Sequence record: NC_104876.1
DNA: 40,815 bases
Source of the DNA: a phage
Strand: one strand, 5' to 3'
The position numbers and the translations under genes are program-made. Shown piece by piece: positions 5,632 to 39,715 of the stretch; position 1 is the first letter of the stretch; every line of letters begins with the position of its first letter. The notes beneath the pieces were generated by a model. That model saw only the letters and a program-made list of their open reading frames with translations. It was not told the DNA's origin and searched no databases.

Positions 5632-6258
5632 TTATCCTCGTTTGCCGTATTTGGCGTTAAGTTTTTGCTGGATTACGTCCGCACCACCGGCCCCGCCAGT
5701 AGAATTTTTGTTACCGGAAGCCCCGCCGCCGGTTGCTGCATCTGCTTTAATCAGATGCGAAAATGCTTTGTGCTCACGCAGATACTTTTTAAATTGCTCT
5801 GCGTCGGTGGTGATGACATTACCGTCTGCACCAGTGAACTTGGTAACAACGTCATCGCCGTCGAACTCGGCCTTGACCATCATAGCGATGATATCCGCTG
5901 CGCTCTCATCAATCAACATGCCAGACAACTGGCTGATAACTGATTTACGTTCTGCGCCGAGGATACGCTCCGCCATTTTGCTAATCTTACCGTCTTTCTC
6001 GGCGAGTACTGGCTCATACTGACTGCGCAACGTTTTCTCGAATGCCTCAAGTTCGCCGTTCTGTTTTGCGCGTTCCTGTTCGGCTTTCAGCTTCGCATCT
6101 GCGGCTTCTTTAGCGGCAGCGGCAGCAGCTTTCTTTTCAGACAAGAGTTTCTCGTTGTTAGCTTTAAGACCTGATACCAGCGCGTCAACTTCTTCTTTGG
6201 TAAACGTGGTCTTAGTCTCTTGTTGTTCGATAGTTTCGTCTTTCACTTCTTCGCTCAT
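5632..6258 (-). CDS. Scaffolding protein
   Basis: Ala/Lys/Glu-rich helical protein (KAAAAAAKEAADAKLKAEQERAK) immediately upstream of the capsid gene. Start set to ATG at 6258 (MSEEVKDE) with a GGGGG RBS; track start 6309 has no RBS. Confidence 0.5.
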   Translation of the reverse strand: MSEEVKDETIEQQETKTTFTKEEVDALVSGLKANNEKLLSEKKAAAAAAKEAADAKLKAEQERAKQNGELEAFEKTLRSQYEPVLAEKDGKISKMAERILGAERKSVISQLSGMLIDESAADIIAMMVKAEFDGDDVVTKFTGADGNVITTDAEQFKKYLREHKAFSHLIKADAATGGGASGNKNSTGGAGGADVIQQKLNAKYGKRG

Positions 6259-6337
6259 CAGTATGCCCCCTGGACGTTGGAATCCGGGCCACCCGGATTT
6301 ACATGTCAAGAATAAATTATTCCAACATACAAGGCAA

Positions 6338-6601
6338 CTATTCCAGAATATTCCTCACGTAATCCTGCAACATGAACACTTTCAGACGCAGTTGCCGCAC
6401 ACATTCGGCGTTCTGAACGTCGATAGCTAAATCCTCGTCAGCGTCGCTACTTGGCAGTGCCAGTTTGCACGGCGGCTGCATCATCGTCGTATCCGGGGAT
6501 GGAATTGGCGTTTGCGACGGCGCGGGACTTGAGCTGCACGCGCTCAGGGTCAAAAGTGCACACGCTGCGGCCAGGCGTTTTAATGTACTTAACGACTTCA
6601 C
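6338..6601 (-). CDS. Outer-membrane spanin (Rz1-like lipoprotein)
   Basis: Signal peptide with lipobox LTLSAC followed by a Pro-rich segment. Starts inside the Rz-like gene in another frame and extends beyond it. Confidence 0.5.
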   Translation of the reverse strand: MKSLSTLKRLAAACALLTLSACSSSPAPSQTPIPSPDTTMMQPPCKLALPSSDADEDLAIDVQNAECVRQLRLKVFMLQDYVRNILE

Positions 6602-6833
6602 GGGTGATTACCTCTGATTTCGTCTTGCCTTCGTTATCAGCGGCTGCGGCCTTCGATTCATCCTGCTGCTGCCGTTGTGTTTTCTTAGCTAACTCAGCCT
6701 GTGCTTTCTGCTGTTGTTGCGAAACGAGATTCGCCCGGCCTCCGTTCCAGCCGCTGCGATACTGGTAGATGCCGTGTGCGTAAGCCAGGATGATGAAACA
6801 TGCTCCCGCTACGACAGTTGCTTTAAGATTCAT
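6447..6833 (-). CDS. Inner-membrane spanin (Rz-like)
   Basis: N-terminal TM helix (VVAGACFIILAYAHGIY), Gln/Lys-rich coiled-coil region, overlapping lipoprotein ORF embedded in alternate frame. Confidence 0.5.
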   Translation of the reverse strand: MNLKATVVAGACFIILAYAHGIYQYRSGWNGGRANLVSQQQQKAQAELAKKTQRQQQDESKAAAADNEGKTKSEVITREVVKYIKTPGRSVCTFDPERVQLKSRAVANANSIPGYDDDAAAVQTGTAK

Positions 6834-7152
6834 GTTTCCCCTTTCTCGATAAGTAAAGCCCCGCCTTAAAGCGGGGCGCTAGTCCTTATCATTTAAACAT
6901 AGAAACGGCGTAATCTCAGTAAACCAGTTACTTTTTACACAAGCAATAGAGTATGGCCCTTCCGAACGCGTCAGCGCAACTACACTCGGACTTAACGTCC
7001 GACTCCGTTACCTGCCGCGCCGCGGTCGCTTGTTCATACTTCACAAGCTCAGGTGGAGCTTAGCACATTTTTGGTGAAAAGTCAACTATTCGAATAGTTT
7101 ATTCCAACATTTACAATTGAGTGGAATAACTGGAATAATCACAGGCACTAAA

Positions 7153-16570: not shown

Positions 16571-16771
16571 TTAGTCCTCCAGAACTTCGCATTCACTTGC
16601 ATACACAACTACATACCCCGCGTCACATTCAATAATGAACATATCGGGACCGGCGTGTGTAACCTCAAACTCATCTCCTACTGCAACGCCCCAGTAACTA
16701 AGCGGCAAATCATCGCCATCGCGCAGGTCCACATAATCAACGTCTGTTATACGAATCCTCATTAACGGCAA
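16571..16771 (-). CDS. Hypothetical early protein
   Basis: 66-aa ORF, overlapping start/stop with neighbours. Confidence 0.35.
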   Translation of the reverse strand: MPLMRIRITDVDYVDLRDGDDLPLSYWGVAVGDEFEVTHAGPDMFIIECDAGYVVVYASECEVLED

Positions 16772-17168: not shown

Positions 17169-17200
17169 AACCCTCACTCCTCTGTCTCGTTTCGATAAGT

Positions 17201-17231
17201 GAATAGTAACCTATTATGTTGGGGTGTGCAA
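17201..17231 (-). promoter_or_regulatory. Promoter (TTGCAC-N17-TACTAT) with embedded operator GAATAGTAACCTATTAT
   Basis: -35 at 17226-17231, -10 at 17203-17208 (minus strand); inverted repeat AATAG-N4-CTATT at 17202-17215. Confidence 0.55.
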
Positions 17232-17602
17232 GAGAATAGTTACGTTGCCGTTGTGATTCTTCAGGTAGGGTTGTGCCTTTATTCTTATTACTTGGTAACT
17301 AAAGGGCGGGCCTTAAGCCTGCCCAATAATCGTTACATTTTTACGGTTGCGAATCTACGGCACTTTAAGAAAATCAGATACTTAAGAGATATGCTGCCGA
17401 TGAGAATAGAGCTTGCCCAGGGCAATCGGAGATACTTAGGAAGGAAAGTTACGATAATTCTCATGTTCAGTAAGCCTGCTGCTTAACCCTTTGCTTAACG
17501 CACGGGTTAAGCATTCTTACAAGGTGAACAGGAATCAAAGTAACTAAGATATAGAAGCACCTTAAACGAAGATTTTCATAATGTCAATAGGTGTGATTAT
17601 GT

Positions 17603-18121: not shown

Positions 18122-20362
18122 ATGTCCGATGTAATTTTATCCTACTCGTGGTCTCGTCGCAACGCGCGGGCAGAGAAAAAGGATATAAACGTCAGAACCA
18201 CACACACGGCAACGCTGGACGACCTGAAAGATTTAATCCAGCCGCTTGATGCTGTCCGTGACGGGATTAACCCAAAGACCGCGCCCGGCTATATCACTGC
18301 CGCGTGTGATTCTACACACAGCACCGTGAAAGACCCGGAAACCGGTGACTTTAAGCAAGCGCGTAAGGGTTTCTTCTATCGCTGTGATGCGTCTGTAAGC
18401 AAATCGTCGCTGGCGTATCTGGACTTCGACAGTGCAACGCCGGAAGAGTATCAGGAAGCTGTACGCCTGGTTAAGCGTAGCCGCCAGGCCATGTGCCTCT
18501 ACACTACGGCGTCACATACTGACGAGGCCCCGCGCTTTCGCGTCGTCATGCCGCTGGCCCGCCCGGTCGAAGGAGGCGACATCATCCGTGTTCGTCACGG
18601 ATTGCTTGCGCATTTCTTCAAAGGCATGGGTGCGGACCGCAGCGGGTTCACTTTGTCTCAGCCGATGTACCTGCCGCCGGTTGGCGCTACCGTTATCTGG
18701 TCGCGCCGTAACGACCTGATTGACCCGGACGAATTACTGGAGGGCATCCCGGATTACGAGGTGAGCAGCGCATCGGATTACCAGATACCGGAAGAACTGC
18801 GCACCGCGTTTACAGACGCGTTCGAAGCACTGGCGTTCGAGTATGGCGGTGTTATGACCCCGCGCGGACTGAAAATGCCTGCCACGCCGGAACACGCAGA
18901 AAACTACAGCGACCCGACCCCGCGACCGGATGACTTCCTGCTGTGTTTCCCGCGCGAGGGATATGAAGCGCCTAACGTAACCATGATTCACGATACTGAC
19001 ATCACCGCGACCGAAGGCATGTCGCCGAAAGAGGTGTGGAAGTACGCGTGCGATGCGACCGGGCTACCGTTCAGTGAAGTCGCTGAGGCAATCGGCTGGG
19101 GTGCGCGTGAATCCGTTTCATGCAGCCTCGACGACCTGGAAGACGACGAGGACTCAGAGGAGGACGAGTTACCAGAACCGGTAAAGGCTGATTTCGTCGT
19201 AGAAGGGTACATGCCGTCAGATTGTATCTGGGATATTGTTGGGGAATCCGGCACGTACAAATCGTTTTATACGCTTGGGATGATGTACCTTAGCGCTGCC
19301 GGATACCGGTTTGCGGGGGCGGATACCCAACGTTGTCACCATTTCTATATCGACGGTGAAGGTGGTGCAGCCACGCGCACACGTATTGACGCGCTCGCGG
19401 CTAAATACGGCGAGGAAGGTAAAGATTACGTACATGTCATTGATATGGGCGAAGTCGGCAAACTGAAAAGCCTGATTAAGATAATGCGTGAAATTGCGGG
19501 CGACGAGCCGATTGGCATGGTTGCGTTCGACACCCTCAACCAGACGCTGGCCCTGACGATTGATAAGTTCGACGAGAACAGTTCATCAACGGCAATCGGC
19601 ATGGGTAAAGTTATCGCCATCCTGAAAGAAGTGCGCGATGCCACTAAAGCCGCGGTAGGCGTTGTCCATCATACGCCGAAGGGCGGAAAGAAAGCCCGCG
19701 GCAGTGGGGCATTGTATGCTGGCGTCGACGTGGAACTGACAATCGAACGCGCCACTGACCGTCAGATAAACGTATATCATTCTAAATTTAAGCATGGGCC
19801 TCAACAGAAGACGGTTGGCATGGTGCTGGAGTCTGTGCAGTTCCGTGAAGCCCCGCCGCCGAAAGAATACCGTGCTGTTGAGTTCCTCGGCAGCACCGAG
19901 GAATATGGCACAATCGTAAACCTCGACCTGCCTGAGCCTCACAAGGCGCTTGTGCTGATGCCGTGGGGCTTCGAGCCGTTCAAGACCGACGAGGAGAAAG
20001 AGCGTGAAGAAGGGCTGACAAAGGAAGGTAAAGAAAACGTAAAGAATGCTGTAAAACGCGGGAAGGATGAAGGGCGTAAGGAATCAATACTCGCCGCGCT
20101 GGAAGACCTGCAACAGTCCGACGACACCGGACGAGGTTTTACCCAACGGCAGATAGTAGCTAACTCTGGCGACCACGCCATAACCAGCCATCATCTTGAG
20201 AAGATGCTGAAAGACGGCGAGTTGATGCTCGGGTGTGATGTTAACGGTGAAGTTATACCGGGAACATACCGGATACCGGAAAAGATGGGTGACAGATTAA
20301 GGCCGAAGACAATATACGAACCGAATGAGATGCTGGTGGTGACAGAGGAGGATTTGGAATAG
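18122..20362 (+). CDS. Primase-helicase (prim-pol-like N-terminal region plus RecA-like ATPase)
   Basis: Walker A VGESGTYKS and Walker B GMVAFD in the central region; acidic linker DDLEDDEDSEEDE; 746 aa; ends ...TEEDLE. Confidence 0.6.
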   Translation: MSDVILSYSWSRRNARAEKKDINVRTTHTATLDDLKDLIQPLDAVRDGINPKTAPGYITAACDSTHSTVKDPETGDFKQARKGFFYRCDASVSKSSLAYLDFDSATPEEYQEAVRLVKRSRQAMCLYTTASHTDEAPRFRVVMPLARPVEGGDIIRVRHGLLAHFFKGMGADRSGFTLSQPMYLPPVGATVIWSRRNDLIDPDELLEGIPDYEVSSASDYQIPEELRTAFTDAFEALAFEYGGVMTPRGLKMPATPEHAENYSDPTPRPDDFLLCFPREGYEAPNVTMIHDTDITATEGMSPKEVWKYACDATGLPFSEVAEAIGWGARESVSCSLDDLEDDEDSEEDELPEPVKADFVVEGYMPSDCIWDIVGESGTYKSFYTLGMMYLSAAGYRFAGADTQRCHHFYIDGEGGAATRTRIDALAAKYGEEGKDYVHVIDMGEVGKLKSLIKIMREIAGDEPIGMVAFDTLNQTLALTIDKFDENSSSTAIGMGKVIAILKEVRDATKAAVGVVHHTPKGGKKARGSGALYAGVDVELTIERATDRQINVYHSKFKHGPQQKTVGMVLESVQFREAPPPKEYRAVEFLGSTEEYGTIVNLDLPEPHKALVLMPWGFEPFKTDEEKEREEGLTKEGKENVKNAVKRGKDEGRKESILAALEDLQQSDDTGRGFTQRQIVANSGDHAITSHHLEKMLKDGELMLGCDVNGEVIPGTYRIPEKMGDRLRPKTIYEPNEMLVVTEEDLE

Positions 20363-20381: not shown

Positions 20382-20597
20382 TTAAGCCCCCTCACCTAAC
20401 GCCAGCCACTTGGCGTCTACTTGCAGCACTTCCGCCAGTTTAAACAGCGTCGCCGGGCGGACGTCCTGAGTTACACCGAGTGCAAGCTGGTTAATTGCGC
20501 CTTGGGAAACACCGGCCAGGACAGCCAGACGGCGCTGGGAGATGCCGAGTTCTTTGCGGCGTTGCTCTACACGGATACCTAGTTCAGATGGTTGCAT
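20382..20597 (-). CDS. XRE-family HTH transcriptional regulator (Cro/CI-like)
   Basis: LGISQRRLAVLAGVSQGAINQLALG is a classic XRE-type HTH; 71 aa; divergent from the operator-bearing promoter region 20627-20690. Confidence 0.65.
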   Translation of the reverse strand: MQPSELGIRVEQRRKELGISQRRLAVLAGVSQGAINQLALGVTQDVRPATLFKLAEVLQVDAKWLALGEGA

Positions 20598-20661
20598 GTC
20601 AATTACTCCTTAGTCAGTTGATATGTGAATAGTACCATATTAATTATTTTAGAAAAGCCCA

Positions 20662-20690
20662 TTGACATGTGAATAGTTCGCTATTATAGT
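20662..20690 (+). promoter_or_regulatory. Promoter TTGACA-N17-TATAGT with embedded operator GAATAGTTCGCTATTAT; second operator-like site at 20627-20643
   Basis: -35 20662-20667, -10 20685-20690; inverted repeat AATAG-N4-CTATT 20672-20685; upstream site GAATAGTACCATATTAA. Confidence 0.6.
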
Positions 20691-20720: not shown

Positions 20721-20882
20721 ATGAAGTTCAGCGTAGACGTAATACCGACAGAAGAGATGCTAAAAGCGGGTATAGACCAACTGCTCGACGTAATACCAGG
20801 CCTCGAGGATGAAGTCGATGAAGAGCAACTGTCAGACGCCGTTTGTTTTATCTGGCAAGCAATGATTCAAGAGTCAAAATAA
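20721..20882 (+). CDS. Small acidic hypothetical protein
   Basis: 53-aa ORF with GAGGAGAG RBS directly after the promoter; not in track (under 60 aa). Confidence 0.35.
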   Translation: MKFSVDVIPTEEMLKAGIDQLLDVIPGLEDEVDEEQLSDAVCFIWQAMIQESK

Positions 20883-20897
20883 ACAGGAGAACAAATA

Positions 20898-21386
20898 ATG
20901 TTAGACCAATTCTTAAAATTACTGGAACGTTTCGTAGTTGCGCATGAACTGATCGCAGCGAACAGCGTGAAACAACCTGTGTATGAACTTAAGGCAGATG
21001 CAAACATCGCAGATAGTGTTCGTGATGTTGTTGTGAAAGAAGTAACGAAAGAAATCCCGGTAGAAGGTGAAGACACCGTTGACACTAAACCAGCAGAAGA
21101 AGAGAAGCCGAATCGCAAGCCGCGTAAAGCTAAAGTAGAGGAGCCAACGCCAGAGCCGGAAGAAGAGAAAGAAGAAGTCGATTATCAGTCTCTGCGCGAC
21201 CAGATTCAGGCTATCGACGATGCGATTAACGAAGGTCCGAGCGATGCCGCGTGCGATGACTCCGATGAACTGCTGGAAGAGTTCACCGGTAAGAAGATGA
21301 AGATTGCAGCGATTAAAGACGAAGACCTGGCTGAGTACCTGGAGCGCCTGACAGCAATCAAGAACAAGTATTTCGAAGAAGAATAA
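20898..21386 (+). CDS. Highly acidic hypothetical protein
   Basis: 162 aa, Glu/Asp-rich throughout; AGGAGA RBS; followed by weak hairpin 21394-21409. Confidence 0.45.
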   Translation: MLDQFLKLLERFVVAHELIAANSVKQPVYELKADANIADSVRDVVVKEVTKEIPVEGEDTVDTKPAEEEKPNRKPRKAKVEEPTPEPEEEKEEVDYQSLRDQIQAIDDAINEGPSDAACDDSDELLEEFTGKKMKIAAIKDEDLAEYLERLTAIKNKYFEEE

Positions 21387-21429
21387 CTATCCCGCGGCCT
21401 TCGGGCCGCTTTAACTGAGGGTCGGAATT

Positions 21430-21744
21430 ATGAAATACGAAAATTTAACAGACATAGAAATTAACGCACGGGTTAGCCGTGCGCTATGGGGCGATGTTTC
21501 TCGAGGACATCAGATGGAGTTAGCTTCTGGAGCGGTAGACTATTGTAATCGGATAGAGGACGCGTGGCCTATTATTGAAGAAAACAACATCAGCCTGATT
21601 TTAGATAACCCGACAATGCCGTGTGCAACGTCAAACGCTCGGGATTTATTTAACGACGACGATACAGAAGTGGGTGTTGCCTATGACAAGCCACTCCGCG
21701 CGGCCATGATAGTCTTTCTGGAAATGCAGGAGAAGGCGCAATGA
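21430..21744 (+). CDS. Hypothetical protein
   Basis: 104-aa ORF; 4-nt overlap with next gene. Confidence 0.4.
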   Translation: MKYENLTDIEINARVSRALWGDVSRGHQMELASGAVDYCNRIEDAWPIIEENNISLILDNPTMPCATSNARDLFNDDDTEVGVAYDKPLRAAMIVFLEMQEKAQ

Positions 21745-22019
21745 TTTACCAACTCTACCGAGCCGTTGACAGACGGGACAACACAGAGGCTCTATGGCTG
21801 TTGCGTGCGCCGTCTGGTGCGCACCAGATGGAAGAGATGGCGTACTTAGGCAAAGTACCGCGGCCTAAAGATATAGGCCGTCACGTGTCGCAGATTAAGC
21901 GCACGACATTCGCCAAACCTGACTTTTATGTCTTTGAGTCGATGTATGGGTGGGCTATGCACTGCGAGCATAAGACACGACATTTAATTGACCAGTGGGA
22001 GAGCAGAGCATGTTTGTAA
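21741..22019 (+). CDS. Hypothetical protein
   Basis: 92-aa ORF; followed by a coupled 46-aa acidic ORF (22010-22150). Confidence 0.4.
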   Translation: MIYQLYRAVDRRDNTEALWLLRAPSGAHQMEEMAYLGKVPRPKDIGRHVSQIKRTTFAKPDFYVFESMYGWAMHCEHKTRHLIDQWESRACL

Positions 22020-22146
22020 TTATGTATTCAATCGGTGAGGAAGAGTACGAACATAGTAGATACCTTACATCCGCAGAGGCCGAGAATATGATACACGAAC
22101 TTGACGCTGACAGTTTCGGCTACGCATGGATTGAGGAGATTGCGGA

Positions 22147-23388
22147 ATGATTCTTAAAGAACGCGGTGGAAATAACGATGTTCACGCATTACTGTCGCCG
22201 TCTGGGGCTAAAAAGTGGCTAAGCTGTGCCGCATCACTGGCCTGTGAGAAAGATATTCCTAACTCGTCCGGCAAAGCTGCCGTATTAGGTACAGCAATGC
22301 ACACCATAGCAGAGATGCATCTTAACCAGTACATCAAAGGCACTGCGCTGCCGTTAGAGCGCGAAGTCGGGGCTTACGTGCTGGATGAAGGTAAAGGCCA
22401 GATTAAGGCTCTAATCAGCCCGATGAAAGGCGCGGTACTTATTACGGCGGACATGATTGAACAGGTGCGCAAGTACACCGACTATTGTAAGGCGATTATC
22501 GATGTAGCGACTTACGCTAAGCTGGAAATGCGCGTCAATCTTACTGAGGTATTGCATCCGGGTTATGAGGGCGTTGAGACGTTCGGAACCGCTGACATCG
22601 TTGCCGTTCAGGAACTGGCAAACACTGACGAGCACATGCTAATTATCGGCGACCTTAAAACCGGGCGGCGTCGTGTCGAAGCGAAAGAAAACAAGCAGCT
22701 TATGCTTTACGCTCTCGGTGTTTATCGCCGACTCAAGAGACGTTATAACATAACAACCGTTCGTCTGGTCATCTTCCAGCCGTATGCTGGCTGTGCGTCG
22801 GAGTGGGGCATCTCGGTTGAAGGTCTGGAACTGTTCGCTAAGTTTGCACATAAACGCGCGCTGTTAGCCCTTGATGCGTATTTCCGTGGCAAGAAGAACC
22901 TGAAAGCGTCGGATTTCAGGCCGTCGGTCGATGGTTGTCAGTGGTGTCGGTTCTCTGAACAATGTGCCGCGCGTACAAAGACGGTTAATTCTGTACTGGC
23001 GGAAGAACTAGAAGACGACTTTGTGCTGGAACTTACGCCGGAGCAACTCGTAGCTGAGTATGAGAAGTTGCCGTTGTTGCGCCAGCACATCGACAAGGTT
23101 GAAAAAGCGATGGCAGCCGCTTTGCATTCCGGTAAGAAAGTGCCGGGTTACAAGCTGGTTGAAGGTCGCCAGGGTAATCGTGCGTGGAAAGACGCGGAGA
23201 AAGTAACAGAACTCTACGGCGACAAGCTGACTAAAGAAGTGCTCATGACGCCGACCGAAGCTGTTAAAGTAATACCGGAGGAAGAACTGAAAGACTTCAT
23301 CACGCGTAAACCGGGGGCGCCATGTGTCGCAACGGTAGACGACAAACGTCCTGAGTGGAATCAGGTTAGTGAAGAAGATTTAGAATAA
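22147..23388 (+). CDS. PD-(D/E)XK exonuclease, Cas4/RecB-like with probable Fe-S cluster
   Basis: Nuclease motifs GTADIV...IIGDLKTG...QLMLYALG; Cys cluster C...CQWCRFSEQC; 413 aa; ends ...SEEDLE. Confidence 0.55.
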   Translation: MILKERGGNNDVHALLSPSGAKKWLSCAASLACEKDIPNSSGKAAVLGTAMHTIAEMHLNQYIKGTALPLEREVGAYVLDEGKGQIKALISPMKGAVLITADMIEQVRKYTDYCKAIIDVATYAKLEMRVNLTEVLHPGYEGVETFGTADIVAVQELANTDEHMLIIGDLKTGRRRVEAKENKQLMLYALGVYRRLKRRYNITTVRLVIFQPYAGCASEWGISVEGLELFAKFAHKRALLALDAYFRGKKNLKASDFRPSVDGCQWCRFSEQCAARTKTVNSVLAEELEDDFVLELTPEQLVAEYEKLPLLRQHIDKVEKAMAAALHSGKKVPGYKLVEGRQGNRAWKDAEKVTELYGDKLTKEVLMTPTEAVKVIPEEELKDFITRKPGAPCVATVDDKRPEWNQVSEEDLE

Positions 23389-23392
23389 AGTG

Positions 23393-23421
23393 TTGACACC
23401 TGAATAGTTAGCTATTATAGT
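23393..23421 (+). promoter_or_regulatory. Promoter TTGACA-N17-TATAGT with embedded operator GAATAGTTAGCTATTAT
   Basis: -35 23393-23398, -10 23416-23421; inverted repeat 23403-23416. Confidence 0.6.
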
Positions 23422-23487: not shown

Positions 23488-24114
23488 ATGGGACTGAAAC
23501 TGAATCTGCGTAAAGTAAACACTGCATGGGTTAACGTATTCGAACGCGAAAAAGACCGTGAAAACGATGATGGCTCAATCACTAAAGGCCAGTACAGCGC
23601 GACTATCATCCTGTCGCCGGACCATGCTCAAATCGACGCGCTCTACGACACTGTTTACGCAGTAGTCGAAGAAGCATTAGGCGCAGCCGCAGCCGAGAAG
23701 TGGATGAAGTCCAACTACGGCGAAGGTAAGCACATGGATAAATGTGCGATTAAAGACATTGCCGAGCGCGACAATCCGTTTGAAGACTTCCCGGAAGGCT
23801 TCTACTTCAAGGCGAAGGCACAGAAACAGCCACTGATTGTAACCTCTAAAAAAGGCGAGACTCAGGTAGAACAGGACTTCAACGTAGACGGCGAACAGAT
23901 TGAAGGTGAACAAGTTTACAGCGGCTGCGTCGCTAACGTAAGCGTCGAAATCTGGTTCAGCCAGAAATATAAAGTTCTCGGGGTTAACCTGCTGGCGATT
24001 AAATACGTAGGCGAAGGTAAAGCGTTCGGTGGTTCTAAAGTCGCCGCAAGCGTCAACGACCTGGAAGACGACGAAGAAGATGAAGCACCGCGCCGCGAGC
24101 GTCGTCGCCGCTAA
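23488..24114 (+). CDS. Putative ssDNA-binding or annealing protein (hypothetical)
   Basis: 208-aa ORF directly upstream of the DNA polymerase gene, with an acidic stretch DLEDDEEDE followed by a basic tail RRERRRR. Function is inferred from position only. Confidence 0.3.
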   Translation: MGLKLNLRKVNTAWVNVFEREKDRENDDGSITKGQYSATIILSPDHAQIDALYDTVYAVVEEALGAAAAEKWMKSNYGEGKHMDKCAIKDIAERDNPFEDFPEGFYFKAKAQKQPLIVTSKKGETQVEQDFNVDGEQIEGEQVYSGCVANVSVEIWFSQKYKVLGVNLLAIKYVGEGKAFGGSKVAASVNDLEDDEEDEAPRRERRRR

Positions 24115-27021: not shown

Positions 27022-27213
27022 ATGAAACACGAATATGACCGCAAACCAGCACGTGACATCGTACCGGGTGACATGATTTTCAACGTTAAGACCCGCCACC
27101 CTGTTGCCGTTGATACGGTGTTCGTCGAGTCGAACGGTAAACTGGTTATCGAAGATGTAACAGGAAACGTTACGGCGTTCGGGCGTAAGGAACTGGTTCT
27201 GGTGGCGAAATGA
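27022..27213 (+). CDS. Hypothetical protein
   Basis: 63-aa ORF, ATGA overlap with next gene. Confidence 0.4.
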   Translation: MKHEYDRKPARDIVPGDMIFNVKTRHPVAVDTVFVESNGKLVIEDVTGNVTAFGRKELVLVAK

Positions 27214-28034
27214 ACTATTACAACGAATGGGATAAAGGCGCAGCCGCGTGGCTGCGTGAATTAATAAAACATGGTCACATACCTTTTGGAGTTGTAGATG
27301 AAAGAAGCATTACCGAAGTTAAGCCAGAAGACCTTGACGGGTTCACCCAGTGTCATTTTTTCGCTGGTATCGGCGGCTGGCCTCTCGCGCTCAGACTTGC
27401 GGGAGTTTCGGAGGATACGCCTCTCTGGACGGGAAGCCCGCCTTGCCAACCGTTTAGCACGGCAGGAAAACAACTCGGACAGTTCGACCAGAGACACCTC
27501 GCGCCGGTCTTCCTCGACCTCATCAGCGAGTGCCGCCCTCCAGTCATCTTTGGGGAGCAGGTTGCGGCAGCAATTGCAAAATCGTGGATGTGCGATTTAC
27601 AAGCTCACCTGGAAGGAGAAGACTACGCCGTCGGGTTTGCTGTACTCCCAGCTTGTAGCGTCGGCGCACCGCACAAAAGAGAACGACTCTTCTTTGGCGC
27701 GCACGAACTGGCCTACACCGACAGCGAACGACTTCAGAGGGAGCGGAGAGACAGTGATTCGCACGGACGGGAGAGACAGAACATTCGACAGGCTGGACTA
27801 CTCAACAGAGCAGGGATTGAAAGCGAGTCAACCAACCCGCACCACGGCTTCTGGTCAGATGCTGACTGGCTCGGATGCCGTGATGGAAAGTTCCGGCCGG
27901 TTGAACCCGGCGCATTCCCGCTGGCTAATGGGATACCCGCAAGAGTGGGACGATTGCGCGGTTACGGCAATGCCATCGTCCCGCAAGTAGCCGCCGAATT
28001 TATAAAGGCGTTTATGGGGGCCGTAAATGAGTAA
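27210..28034 (+). CDS. DNA (cytosine-5)-methyltransferase-like protein; reading frame appears interrupted (possible pseudogene or sequence error)
   Basis: Frame of 27210 carries motif [44 protein letters not shown] and [10 protein letters not shown]. Motif IX-like [17 protein letters not shown] lies in the +1 frame (27298..27990). Confidence 0.5.
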
Positions 28035-39548: not shown

Positions 39549-39656
39549 TCTTTAATCCTTTGGTTAAGAGGTTACAGGTTAACGATAAATGCGCCAGACG
39601 GGAACCACCCGCTTTTCGTGTGCGACACTAGGCGCAAAATTATTCTATCACATTAC

Positions 39657-39688
39657 TTGCACACCCCAACATAATAGGGTACTATTCA
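39657..39688 (+). promoter_or_regulatory. Promoter (TTGCAC-N17-TACTAT) with operator AATAGGGTACTATT driving the accessory cassette
   Basis: -35 39657-39662, -10 39680-39685; operator 39673-39686. Over about 35 nt it is nearly identical to the reverse complement of the 17201-17235 promoter. Confidence 0.55.
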
Positions 39689-39715
39689 CTTACACCAACA
39701 ATGAAGGGGTTTAAA

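What the first reader, a model, noticed from the sequence alone, without database searches (positions are those of the whole stretch)
20721..21386. Two strongly acidic proteins encoded first after an operator-controlled early promoter: possible DNA-mimic anti-restriction proteins
The 53-aa and 162-aa products immediately downstream of the 20662-20690 promoter are Glu/Asp-rich with no recognisable enzymatic motif. Position (first genes of an early transcript) and composition are reminiscent of Ocr- or ArdA-type DNA mimics. This is speculative and based on composition only.
Basis: inference. Interest (0 to 1): 0.4.

Follow-up and report, generated by a model that had tools for sequence, protein, structure and literature searches.

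The report
Two unrelated acidic early phage proteins
Both acidic proteins are real, but the larger is a conserved part of the phage's DNA-replication gene block and does not block restriction, while the smaller is an optional gene in a swap-in slot that holds a known anti-restriction gene (Ral) in sister phages.

Summary
The window is a Kagunavirus (Guernseyvirinae) genome, apparently Escherichia phage ULINTec2. Both ORFs exist as described: 53 aa (net charge -10) and 162 aa (net -21). They follow a near-consensus sigma-70 promoter that carries a repeated operator-like motif, opposite a Cro/CI-type HTH gene.

The two proteins are different things.

The 162-aa protein (PHROG 3127, labelled "13.88 kDa late protein") is a core gene. 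It heads the replication/recombination operon in Guernseyvirinae and has the same position in a Dhillonvirus. It is predicted as an N-terminal amphipathic helix, about 70 disordered residues and a small acidic three-helix bundle. It shows no sequence or fold link to Ocr, ArdA, Gam or gp5.9. BASEL kagunaviruses, at least four of which carry its homologue, are restricted 10^-3 to 10^-5 by EcoKI. The Ocr/ArdA reading is therefore rejected for it. It is most likely a replisome or host-factor adaptor.

The 53-aa protein is rare. It sits in a hypervariable slot that is empty in half of the relatives. In other relatives the slot holds different cassettes, including a lambda Ral anti-restriction homologue at exactly the same position. 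It is a plausible counter-defence protein, but nothing supports DNA mimicry.

The parts
20382..20597 (-). 71-aa Cro/CI-type HTH_3 regulator, transcribed divergently from the early promoter
   Evidence: Pfam HTH_3, E 1.2e-12. Conserved at this position in all related loci.
20618..20642 (+). Operator-like repeat, copy 1 (TTGATATGTGAATAGTACCATATTA)
   Evidence: Direct repeat family D1. Nearly invariant in kagunaviruses. Replaced by a different repeated motif in Jerseyvirus-like loci with a diverged HTH.
20662..20690 (+). Early promoter P1 (TTGACA-17-TATAGT) with operator-like repeat copy 2 embedded in its spacer
   Evidence: 11 of 12 consensus matches. Repeat shown. The -10 region TATTATAGTT is conserved across the subfamily.
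20721..20882 (+). 53-aa acidic accessory protein: a helical hairpin and one of at least ten alternative cassettes in the promoter-proximal slot
   Evidence: ORF. Charge. Only 7 clusters among 5.8 billion proteins. pN/pS 0.25-0.47. AF2 helices 11-24 and 34-51, pLDDT 82. Slot survey.
20898..20972 (+). 162-aa protein, residues 1-25: conserved N-terminal amphipathic helix (MLDQFLKLLERFVVAHELIAANSV)
   Evidence: AF2 helix 2-25. 20-21 of 24 residues identical to relatives whose helicase-primase is about 30% identical. Conserved at the amino-acid level, not at synonymous sites.
20973..21182 (+). 162-aa protein, residues 26-95: disordered mixed-charge linker with the conserved motif EIPVEGEDxxDTKP and the basic patch KPNRKPRKAK
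   Evidence: pLDDT 45-56. Near-invariant columns E52, V55-D59, D62-K64, E68-K72 and K74. Variable length of 49-136 residues.
21183..21386 (+). 162-aa protein, residues 96-162 plus stop: acidic three-helix bundle (residues 93-162 carry net -13) ending in YFEEE
   Evidence: AF2 helices 96-112, 116-130 and 141-159, pLDDT above 90. Conserved acidic columns D116, D120, D123, E124, E127, D141-D143. Duplicated in 208-212-aa relatives.
21394..21409 (+). GC-rich hairpin (GCGGCC-TTCG-GGCCGC) directly after the stop codon of the 162-aa gene
   Evidence: Sequence. A hairpin at this place is kept in nearly all relatives, with unrelated stem sequences in distant ones. It is not called a canonical terminator because only TTT follows.
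21430..23388 (+). Rest of the first transcription unit: NinX-like (21430-21744), PHROG 4965 (21741-22019), acidic 46-51-aa ORF (21995-22150), DUF2800/PD-(D/E)XK exonuclease (22147-23388)
   Evidence: Pfam and PHROG hits.
23393..23421 (+). Second copy of the same promoter-plus-operator (TTGACAccTGAATAGTTaGCTATTATAGT), ahead of the gp2.5-like SSB and DNA polymerase genes

Best explanation
The two ORFs are real, probably early-expressed acidic proteins, but they are unrelated in kind.

(1) ORF 20898-21386 (162 aa) is a core component of the replication/recombination module shared by Guernseyvirinae, Dhillonvirus and relatives. That module holds a helicase-primase, a PD-(D/E)XK exonuclease, a gp2.5/Enc34-type SSB and a family-A polymerase. 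The protein is not an Ocr/ArdA-type DNA mimic and does not protect against restriction. It is a modular, mostly disordered adaptor with three parts: a very conserved N-terminal amphipathic docking or oligomerisation helix; a mixed-charge linker with a conserved short motif and a basic patch; and a small acidic three-helix bundle. The bundle would bind a basic, probably nucleic-acid-binding, surface of a partner. The partner would be a phage replisome or recombination protein, or a conserved host factor recruited to or kept away from it. That it is made early and in excess of the downstream genes is inferred from the strong promoter and the conserved hairpin after its stop codon.

(2) ORF 20721-20882 (53 aa) is an optional cassette inserted between the early promoter and that core gene. 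The slot is hypervariable. In sister phages it holds a lambda-Ral anti-restriction homologue at the identical position. The 53-aa helical hairpin is therefore most likely a small host-takeover or counter-defence protein that works by binding a host protein. Its target is unknown.

Shown here: gene existence, charge, promoter and operator architecture, conservation and synteny, predicted folds, absence of known-family membership, and restriction sensitivity of relatives that carry the 162-aa gene. Inferred: timing, abundance, binding partners and the counter-defence role of the 53-aa protein.
For: 162-aa protein:
- PHROG 3127, E 1e-67.
- Homologues in 484 phage records, at least 80% coverage in 480.
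- It starts 124-134 nt after the divergent HTH gene, with no ORF between, in 31 of 63 related loci. It is always upstream of the exonuclease.
- Same position in Dhillonvirus jat, where gp19 matches with hhalign probability 99.4% and E 5.6e-22.
- AF2 model: helix 2-25, disorder 26-95, three-helix bundle 96-159 with pLDDT above 90.
- N-terminal 24 residues are 83-88% identical across clades in which the SSB is 47-50%, the exonuclease 54-58% and the helicase-primase 30% identical. Synonymous variation there is normal, so the constraint is on the peptide.
- Acidic columns of the bundle are conserved. The median net charge of the C-terminal 67 residues is -10 over 258 homologues.
- A hairpin after the stop codon is conserved.
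- BASEL raw data (PMC11990801): Bas70 EOP 1.3e-5 on EcoKI and 1e-3 on EcoCFT_I. Bas73 gave 5e4 versus 6e7 pfu on EcoKI. Bas73 carries an 80% identical homologue. Bas71, 72 and 76 also carry one.

53-aa protein:
- Only 7 clusters at E <= 0.01 among 5.8 billion proteins.
- Present in 2 of the 63 surveyed loci and in a further metagenomic contig.
- pN/pS 0.25-0.47.
- The slot holds at least ten alternatives. One is a Ral homologue: PF11058 E 1.6e-30 and 66.7% identity to lambda ral.
- In phage GZMU_E2010 ral occupies locus positions 1501-1680. The 53-aa gene occupies 1501-1662 in fFiEco03, with the same flanks.
Against: - No partner of either protein was identified. AF2 was run on monomers only.
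- An abundant, first-transcribed, conserved acidic protein also fits a host-directed inhibitor, for example of RecBCD, a nucleoid protein or RNA polymerase. That is not excluded for the 162-aa protein.
- The restriction phenotypes come from relatives (80% identity), not from this phage. They do not cover BREX or other systems.
- The slot argument for the 53-aa protein is guilt by association. The same slot also holds HNH homing endonucleases, a ParB-like gene and a basic 49-aa protein, so not every occupant need be counter-defence.
- The only RNA-seq study of a kagunavirus (PMC12645636) has coarse timing. It does not say in which class the 162-aa homologue falls.
Confidence: 0.55

Rival explanations
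1. One reading: both proteins are Ocr- or ArdA-type DNA mimics that block type I restriction (and BREX) by occupying the enzyme's DNA-binding groove.
For: Both are strongly acidic. The 53-aa protein has -0.19 net charge per residue and the 162-aa protein -0.13, against Ocr -0.24 and gp5.9 -0.15. Both come first after a strong early promoter. A real anti-restriction gene (ral) can occupy the slot of the 53-aa gene.
Against: - No hit to the Pfam Ocr, ArdA, Gam or Antirestrict families in either protein or in 101 homologues.
- The 162-aa protein is 43% disordered and 14% basic, and its only fold is a bundle about 25-28 A long.
- BASEL kagunaviruses are restricted 10^-3 to 10^-5 by EcoKI and EcoCFT_I, and Bas73 carries an 80% identical homologue.
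- The 162-aa gene is core and syntenic with replication genes.
- For the 53-aa protein nothing was tested beyond charge and fold.
Confidence: 0.07
2. The 162-aa protein is a host-takeover inhibitor. Its conserved N-helix and acidic bundle bind a conserved host DNA-handling protein (RecBCD, H-NS/HU, RNA polymerase or host SSB). It would act as a local nucleic-acid mimic that protects or favours phage DNA, rather than as a replisome part.
For: - The N-terminal helix is far more conserved than any phage replication protein compared. That is expected if the partner is a slowly evolving host protein.
- It is first transcribed and followed by a conserved hairpin, which suggests stoichiometric amounts.
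- Acidic surface positions are conserved.
- No recognisable Gam, gp5.9 or Abc2 homologue was found among the window ORFs that were scanned against Pfam or PHROGs, about 28 of 62, mostly in the early region.
- Kagunaviruses show variable sensitivity to the Old system. From my own knowledge, P2 Old is linked to RecBCD inhibition.
Against: Strict co-inheritance with one type of replication module across several phage groups. In Dhillonvirus the N-helix has diverged (10 of 24 identical) although the host is still E. coli. There is no fold or sequence link to any known inhibitor.
Confidence: 0.25
3. The 53-aa ORF has no defence-related role. It is a small mobile 'filler' or regulatory gene, for example one that modulates the operon or the HTH repressor, and it happens to lie in a recombination hot spot.
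For: The slot also carries homing endonucleases, a ParB-like gene and a basic 49-aa ORF, and is empty in half of the relatives. Distant relatives of the domain lie in unrelated contexts, for example as the C-terminal part of a 122-aa protein between the portal and coat genes in phage sortregn.
Against: Purifying selection (pN/pS 0.25-0.47). About 50% identity to the Cornellvirus-like copy in the same slot, although the flanking genes have diverged to 37-39%. Conserved acidity, net -7 to -11. Allelic position with ral.
Confidence: 0.2

Closest known systems
Lambda Ral (Pfam PF11058, restriction alleviation)
   Same: In sister kagunaviruses it occupies exactly the slot, and the same offset from the early promoter, as the 53-aa gene. 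It is a small early accessory protein.
   Different: No sequence similarity to the 53-aa protein, which has no Pfam hit. The Ral homologue in the slot has net charge -1, is Cys-rich and is 59 aa long. From general knowledge, Ral works by stimulating methylation, not by mimicry.
T7 Ocr (gp0.3) and ArdA, DNA-mimic anti-restriction proteins
   Same: Acidic (pI about 4). First gene after a strong early host-RNAP promoter.
   Different: No sequence or fold similarity. The 162-aa protein is largely disordered, 14% basic and a core replication-module gene. BASEL kagunaviruses, several of which carry its homologue, are not protected from type I R-M.
T7 gp5.9 and lambda Gam (RecBCD inhibitors)
   Same: gp5.9 is 52 aa with 25% acidic residues, like the 53-aa protein. 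Both known inhibitors sit in recombination/exonuclease gene neighbourhoods.
Acidic C-terminal tails of phage and bacterial SSBs (T7 gp2.5, E. coli SSB) and small three-helix-bundle adaptor domains such as the Red-beta C-terminal domain
Phage accessory regions / counter-defence hot spots (hypervariable loci between conserved genes)
   Same: The promoter-to-core-gene interval is either empty or holds one of at least ten unrelated cassettes, rarely two. These include an anti-restriction gene and homing endonucleases.
   Different: This particular locus in Guernseyvirinae does not appear in the papers I could search. None of its occupants except Ral has a known function.

Membership tests
Ocr (T7 gp0.3) DNA mimics | Sequence membership (Pfam Ocr family) | tested here: not met
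   No Pfam hit at E <= 0.1 for either protein. None among 101 homologues of the 162-aa protein. BLAST against T7 Ocr gave only compositional matches.
Ocr (T7 gp0.3) DNA mimics | Rigid elongated all-helical fold that presents carboxylates like about 24 bp of bent DNA | tested here: not met
Ocr (T7 gp0.3) DNA mimics | Protects the phage from type I restriction | tested here: not met
   Published plating data cover the 162-aa protein only. Bas70 has EOP 1.3e-5 on EcoKI. Bas73 gave 5e4 of 6e7 pfu, and Bas73 carries an 80% identical homologue. No data exist for the 53-aa protein.
ArdA | Sequence membership (Pfam ArdA) and three-domain elongated dimer | tested here: not met
RecBCD inhibitors Gam / gp5.9 | Sequence or fold similarity to lambda Gam or T7 gp5.9 | tested here: not met
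RecBCD inhibitors Gam / gp5.9 | Binds RecBCD and blocks its DNA-end entry | not testable with these tools
   Needs complex prediction or biochemistry.
Ral (PF11058) | Sequence membership | tested here: not met
   The 53-aa protein has no Pfam hit. The alternative 59-aa cassette of locus L023 scores 104.9 bits against a cut-off of 25.
PHROG 3127 ('13.88 kDa late protein' family) | Full-length profile match | tested here: met
   E 9.9e-68 over residues 1-162. The label traces to UniProt Q9T1Z8 of Salmonella phage MB78 and carries no functional evidence here.
PHROG 35278 (unknown function) | Profile match of the 53-aa protein | tested here: inconclusive
   E 1.1e-4, matching only the C-terminal third of a 138-position profile. 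Clearer in sortregn gp36, E 9e-22.
Hypervariable accessory (counter-defence) locus | Conserved flanks with many mutually exclusive unrelated inserts, at least one with known counter-defence function | tested here: met
   63 loci surveyed: 31 empty and at least ten cassette types. Ral is among them. Identical flanks and start offset.

The most novel reading that the evidence does not exclude
The interval between the repressor-controlled early promoter and the core 162-aa gene is a dedicated counter-defence slot of Guernseyvirinae. The 53-aa acidic hairpin would then be a new family of small inhibitors of a DNA-targeting host defence (type I R-M, BREX or similar), functionally allelic to Ral, possibly acting as a dimeric mini DNA mimic. 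In parallel, the 162-aa family would be a so far unrecognised hub protein of T7-like replication modules in small siphoviruses. Its charge-block linker imitates the cognate SSB tail.
Probability: 0.2. Interest if true: 0.6.

Novelty: new member of a known kind. Interest (0 to 1): 0.4.

Why it matters
Kagunaviruses and jerseyviruses are among the phages most often isolated for E. coli and Salmonella therapy and biocontrol. They are limited by restriction and other defences.

A defined swap-in slot directly behind the early promoter already carries Ral in some isolates and at least nine other uncharacterised small genes in others. It is a compact, testable source of new counter-defence proteins and a natural site for engineering such genes into these phages.

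Separately, the 162-aa family is found in 484 phage records and in Dhillonvirus, and is probably one of the first proteins made, yet it has no assigned function. Showing that it is not an anti-restriction protein but part of the replication module redirects the experiments that should be done on it.

Tried and rejected
- Sequence searches for a known family: Pfam, PHROGs and NCBIfam on both proteins, Pfam on 101 homologues, and a PDB sequence profile search. None gave a functional hit.
- An exhaustive HMMER search of 1.8 billion cluster representatives with the 162-aa protein found only 30 clusters, all the same family.
- Direct BLAST against T7 Ocr, T7 gp5.9 and lambda Gam gave nothing significant.
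- I tested whether the extreme conservation of the N-terminal helix reflects an overlapping RNA or DNA element. I rejected this because synonymous sites vary normally.
- I tested whether the linker of the 162-aa protein copies the tail of the cognate SSB. This is significant in phages jat and STM-ZS but not in this window or in TS33, so I kept it only as a lead.
- Transcriptome data for a kagunavirus (PMC12645636) have coarse time points, and the class of the homologue is not stated.
- I found no essentiality or genome-reduction data for this phage group. The CiPGr phage seszw is a Skatevirus.
- I found no literature on the MB78 'late protein' in the held library.
- The 'nuclease inhibitor gamma' annotated next to the homologue in phage jat could have argued against a RecBCD-inhibitor role. 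It turned out to be an HTH protein, so that argument was dropped.

Full report
**What the window is.** The 162-aa product is 100% identical to a protein of Escherichia phage ULINTec2 whose contig is 40,815 bp, the length of this window. The region is 86-94% identical at the DNA level to many Kagunavirus (Guernseyvirinae) genomes. These are virulent siphoviruses of E. coli and Salmonella.

**Checking the observation.** ORFs 20721-20882 (53 aa) and 20898-21386 (162 aa) exist. Both have good ribosome-binding sites.
- The 53-aa protein has pI 4.05 and net charge -10. The 162-aa protein has pI 4.42 and net charge -21.
- Among 62 crude ORFs they are two of the four most negatively charged per residue. 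The acidity is therefore unusual for this genome.
- The promoter at 20662-20690 is TTGACA-17-TATAGT.
- A 25-nt direct repeat places one copy in the promoter spacer and one 44 nt upstream.
- Its 11-mer core occurs four times in the window within one mismatch, against 0.52 expected. A further, more divergent copy (cCTGAATAGT) lies in a second, nearly identical promoter at 23393-23421 ahead of the SSB gene.
- In Jerseyvirus-like relatives, whose divergent HTH protein is only about 49% identical, both copies carry an AATAG core instead of GAATAGT. The -10 region TATTATAGTT stays fixed.
- Together with the divergent 71-aa HTH_3 gene, this supports an operator-controlled, host-RNAP promoter.

'Early' remains an inference.

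**The 162-aa protein is a core gene of the replication module.** It matches PHROG 3127 over its full length and has homologues in 484 phage records.
- In 63 related loci it always lies downstream of the divergent HTH gene and upstream of the DUF2800/PD-(D/E)XK exonuclease. In 31 of them it starts 124-134 nt after the HTH gene, with no ORF between, so it is the first gene after the promoter.
- The operon continues with a gp2.5/Enc34-type SSB, a family-A polymerase, a resolvase-like nuclease, a methyltransferase and a helicase.
- The same layout is kept in distant Guernseyvirinae, where the helicase-primase is inverted.
- It is also kept in Dhillonvirus phage jat, whose gp19 is a full-length homologue (hhalign 99.4%, E 5.6e-22).
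- The family is otherwise narrow, with 30 clusters at 50% identity among 1.8 billion proteins.
- The label '13.88 kDa late protein' comes from a UniProt entry of Salmonella phage MB78. I found no data behind it.

**Anatomy of the 162-aa protein.** AlphaFold2 with 101 homologues gives three parts:
- a helix at residues 2-25;
- about 70 disordered residues, 26-95;
- a confident three-helix bundle at 96-159 (pLDDT above 90).

The N-terminal 24 residues are 83-88% identical to relatives in which the SSB is 47-50%, the exonuclease 54-58% and the helicase-primase 30% identical. Synonymous sites there vary as much as elsewhere, so the peptide itself is constrained.

The linker varies in length (49-136 residues) and is rich in P, K, E, A and D. 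It keeps a short motif, EIPVEGEDxxDTKP, and a basic patch.

The C-terminal region (residues 93-162) carries net charge -13. Its acidic columns are conserved. It ends in an aromatic-acidic tail, YFEEE or YYEIEE. It is duplicated in some 208-212-aa members.

**Test of the DNA-mimic reading for the 162-aa protein.**
- There is no Pfam hit to the Ocr, ArdA, Gam or Antirestrict families in it or in 101 homologues. There is no PDB sequence relative.
- The only folded part has helices of 15-19 residues, roughly 25 A long. That is far shorter than the DNA footprint that Ocr or ArdA copy. Also, 14% of the residues are basic.
- Most decisive are the plating data. The BASEL study reports that kagunaviruses Bas70-76 are highly sensitive to R-M systems (PMC11990801).
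- Its raw data give Bas70 an EOP of 1.3e-5 on EcoKI and 1e-3 on EcoCFT_I. Bas73 gave 5e4 versus 6e7 pfu on EcoKI, although these genomes have only 2-4 EcoKI sites.
- Bas73 encodes an 80% identical homologue. Bas71, 72 and 76 also carry one.

An Ocr-like function is therefore rejected for this protein.

**What the 162-aa protein most likely does.** Four things point to an adaptor rather than an enzyme or a mimic of long DNA:
- core status and strict synteny with one type of replication module;
- a multi-part architecture made of a docking helix, a linear motif, a basic patch and an acidic bundle;
- occasional duplication of the bundle;
- a conserved hairpin directly after the stop codon, kept with unrelated stem sequences in distant relatives, which suggests higher expression than the downstream genes.

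The acidic bundle would bind a basic surface.

Two leads place it near the replisome.
- The helicase-primase and the exonuclease both end in ..EEDLE, and the SSB tail contains NDLEDDEEDEAPRRERRRR. This acidic DL motif is kept in TS33 and in Dhillonvirus, much as the acidic tails of T7 replisome proteins are.
- In phages jat and STM-ZS the linker resembles the cognate SSB tail well beyond composition (z above 5, 0 of 2000 shuffles). In this window it does not (z 0.3).

The very high conservation of the N-helix would equally fit a conserved host partner. A host-directed inhibitor (RecBCD, nucleoid protein or RNAP) is therefore kept as the main rival.

**The 53-aa protein is an optional cassette.**
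- Only seven clusters match it at E <= 0.01 among 5.8 billion proteins.
- Among cultured phages it is found unchanged only in fFiEco03. It is about 50% identical in two Cornellvirus-like phages in the same slot. Weaker matches occur in other siphovirus groups in unrelated contexts.
- It is under purifying selection (pN/pS 0.25-0.47), and its acidity is kept (net -7 to -11).

**The slot.** In the 63 surveyed loci the interval between the promoter and the 162-aa gene is empty in 31. Elsewhere it holds unrelated inserts:
- a basic 49-aa ORF;
- a 58-aa ORF;
- a Cys-rich acidic 75-aa ORF;
- other acidic ORFs of 58, 85 and 86 aa;
- HNH homing endonucleases;
- a ParB-like protein;
- a 224-aa ORF;
- the 53-aa family.

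One locus has two cassettes in tandem. The leader and ribosome-binding site are the same whichever gene follows.

One cassette, 59 aa, is a clear Ral homologue. It scores PF11058 E 1.6e-30, PHROG 'restriction alleviation ral' E 1.1e-30, and 66.7% identity to lambda ral. In the cultured kagunavirus GZMU_E2010 it occupies locus positions 1501-1680. The 53-aa gene occupies 1501-1662 in fFiEco03, between identical flanks.

So a known anti-restriction gene and the 53-aa gene are alternative occupants of one position. This is the only positive evidence for a counter-defence role, and it is by association. Nothing supports DNA mimicry specifically.

**Comparison with the known, and verdict.** The finding is real. 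Its interpretation is wrong for the larger protein and untested but plausible in spirit for the smaller.

Neither protein is a member of the Ocr, ArdA, Gam, gp5.9 or Ral families. The 162-aa protein is a member of an uncharacterised but widespread family tied to a T7-like replication module. The 53-aa protein is a new occupant of what looks like a counter-defence accessory locus, which is a known kind of phage feature.

Interest is moderate. The slot is a practical lead for finding anti-defence genes, and the 162-aa family deserves a functional study, but no unusual mechanism is demonstrated.

Noticed in passing
window 21995-22150 (+): An even more acidic small ORF (46-51 aa, net -12, PHROG 31152, unknown function) overlaps the start of the exonuclease gene. 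This is the same layout as T7 gene 5.9 (RecBCD inhibitor) before gene 6. It is present in only a few relatives and shows no significant similarity to gp5.9.
   Followed up: partly
window 21394-21409 (+): A GC hairpin (GCGGCC-TTCG-GGCCGC) lies right after the stop codon of the 162-aa gene. A hairpin at this spot is kept in nearly all relatives, with unrelated stem sequences in distant ones. Only a short T run follows, so it may be an attenuator or an RNA-stabilising or processing element.
   Followed up: partly
window 23393-23421 (+); 17193-17235 (+); 39655-39697 (-): A second near-identical promoter-plus-operator lies ahead of the SSB gene. Two copies of a roughly 40-nt element, TAAGTGAATAGTAnCCTATTATGTTGGGGTGTGCAAG, lie in other intergenic regions. 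This suggests a small regulon of the 71-aa HTH protein.
   Followed up: partly
window 20335-20359, 23361-23385, 24052-24111: The helicase-primase and the exonuclease both end in ..EEDLE. The SSB tail reads NDLEDDEEDEAPRRERRRR. The acidic 'DL' tail motif is kept in Hafnia phage TS33 and in Dhillonvirus jat although the proteins are only 30-55% identical. It may be a shared docking peptide.
   Followed up: partly
L074:3252-3695 and 6070-6852; L003:3001-3492 and L075:41-736: In phages jat and STM-ZS the disordered linker of the 162-aa homologue resembles the charge-block tail of the cognate SSB far beyond composition (z 5.3-5.7, 0 of 2000 shuffles). This does not hold in this window or in TS33.
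   Followed up: partly
whole window: GATC occurs only 6 times against 134 +/- 11 expected from dinucleotide-preserving shuffles. EcoRI occurs once. This is strong site avoidance alongside a phage DNA methyltransferase gene at 27210-28034.
   Followed up: partly
L074:2521-2850 (-) (Escherichia phage jat gp18): This gene is annotated 'DNA recombination nuclease inhibitor gamma', but Pfam finds only HTH domains (HTH_23, Sigma70_r4_2). It is likely a regulator and the annotation looks wrong.
   Followed up: yes
window 16571-16771 (-): Another very acidic small ORF (66 aa, net -13, weak PHROG 30395 hit) lies in a leftward cluster of small genes.
   Followed up: no
L001:3587-4077 (phage M01); UniProt Q9T1Z8 (phage MB78, 123 aa): The 162-aa homologue is split into two ORFs in the M01 record and is truncated in MB78. 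Several metagenomic representatives are frameshifted in the low-complexity linker. The '13.88 kDa' label thus describes a fragment.
   Followed up: partly
L073:2337-2662: One metagenomic kagunavirus carries two slot cassettes in tandem, the basic 49-aa ORF followed by the 53-aa homologue. Cassettes can therefore stack.
   Followed up: no
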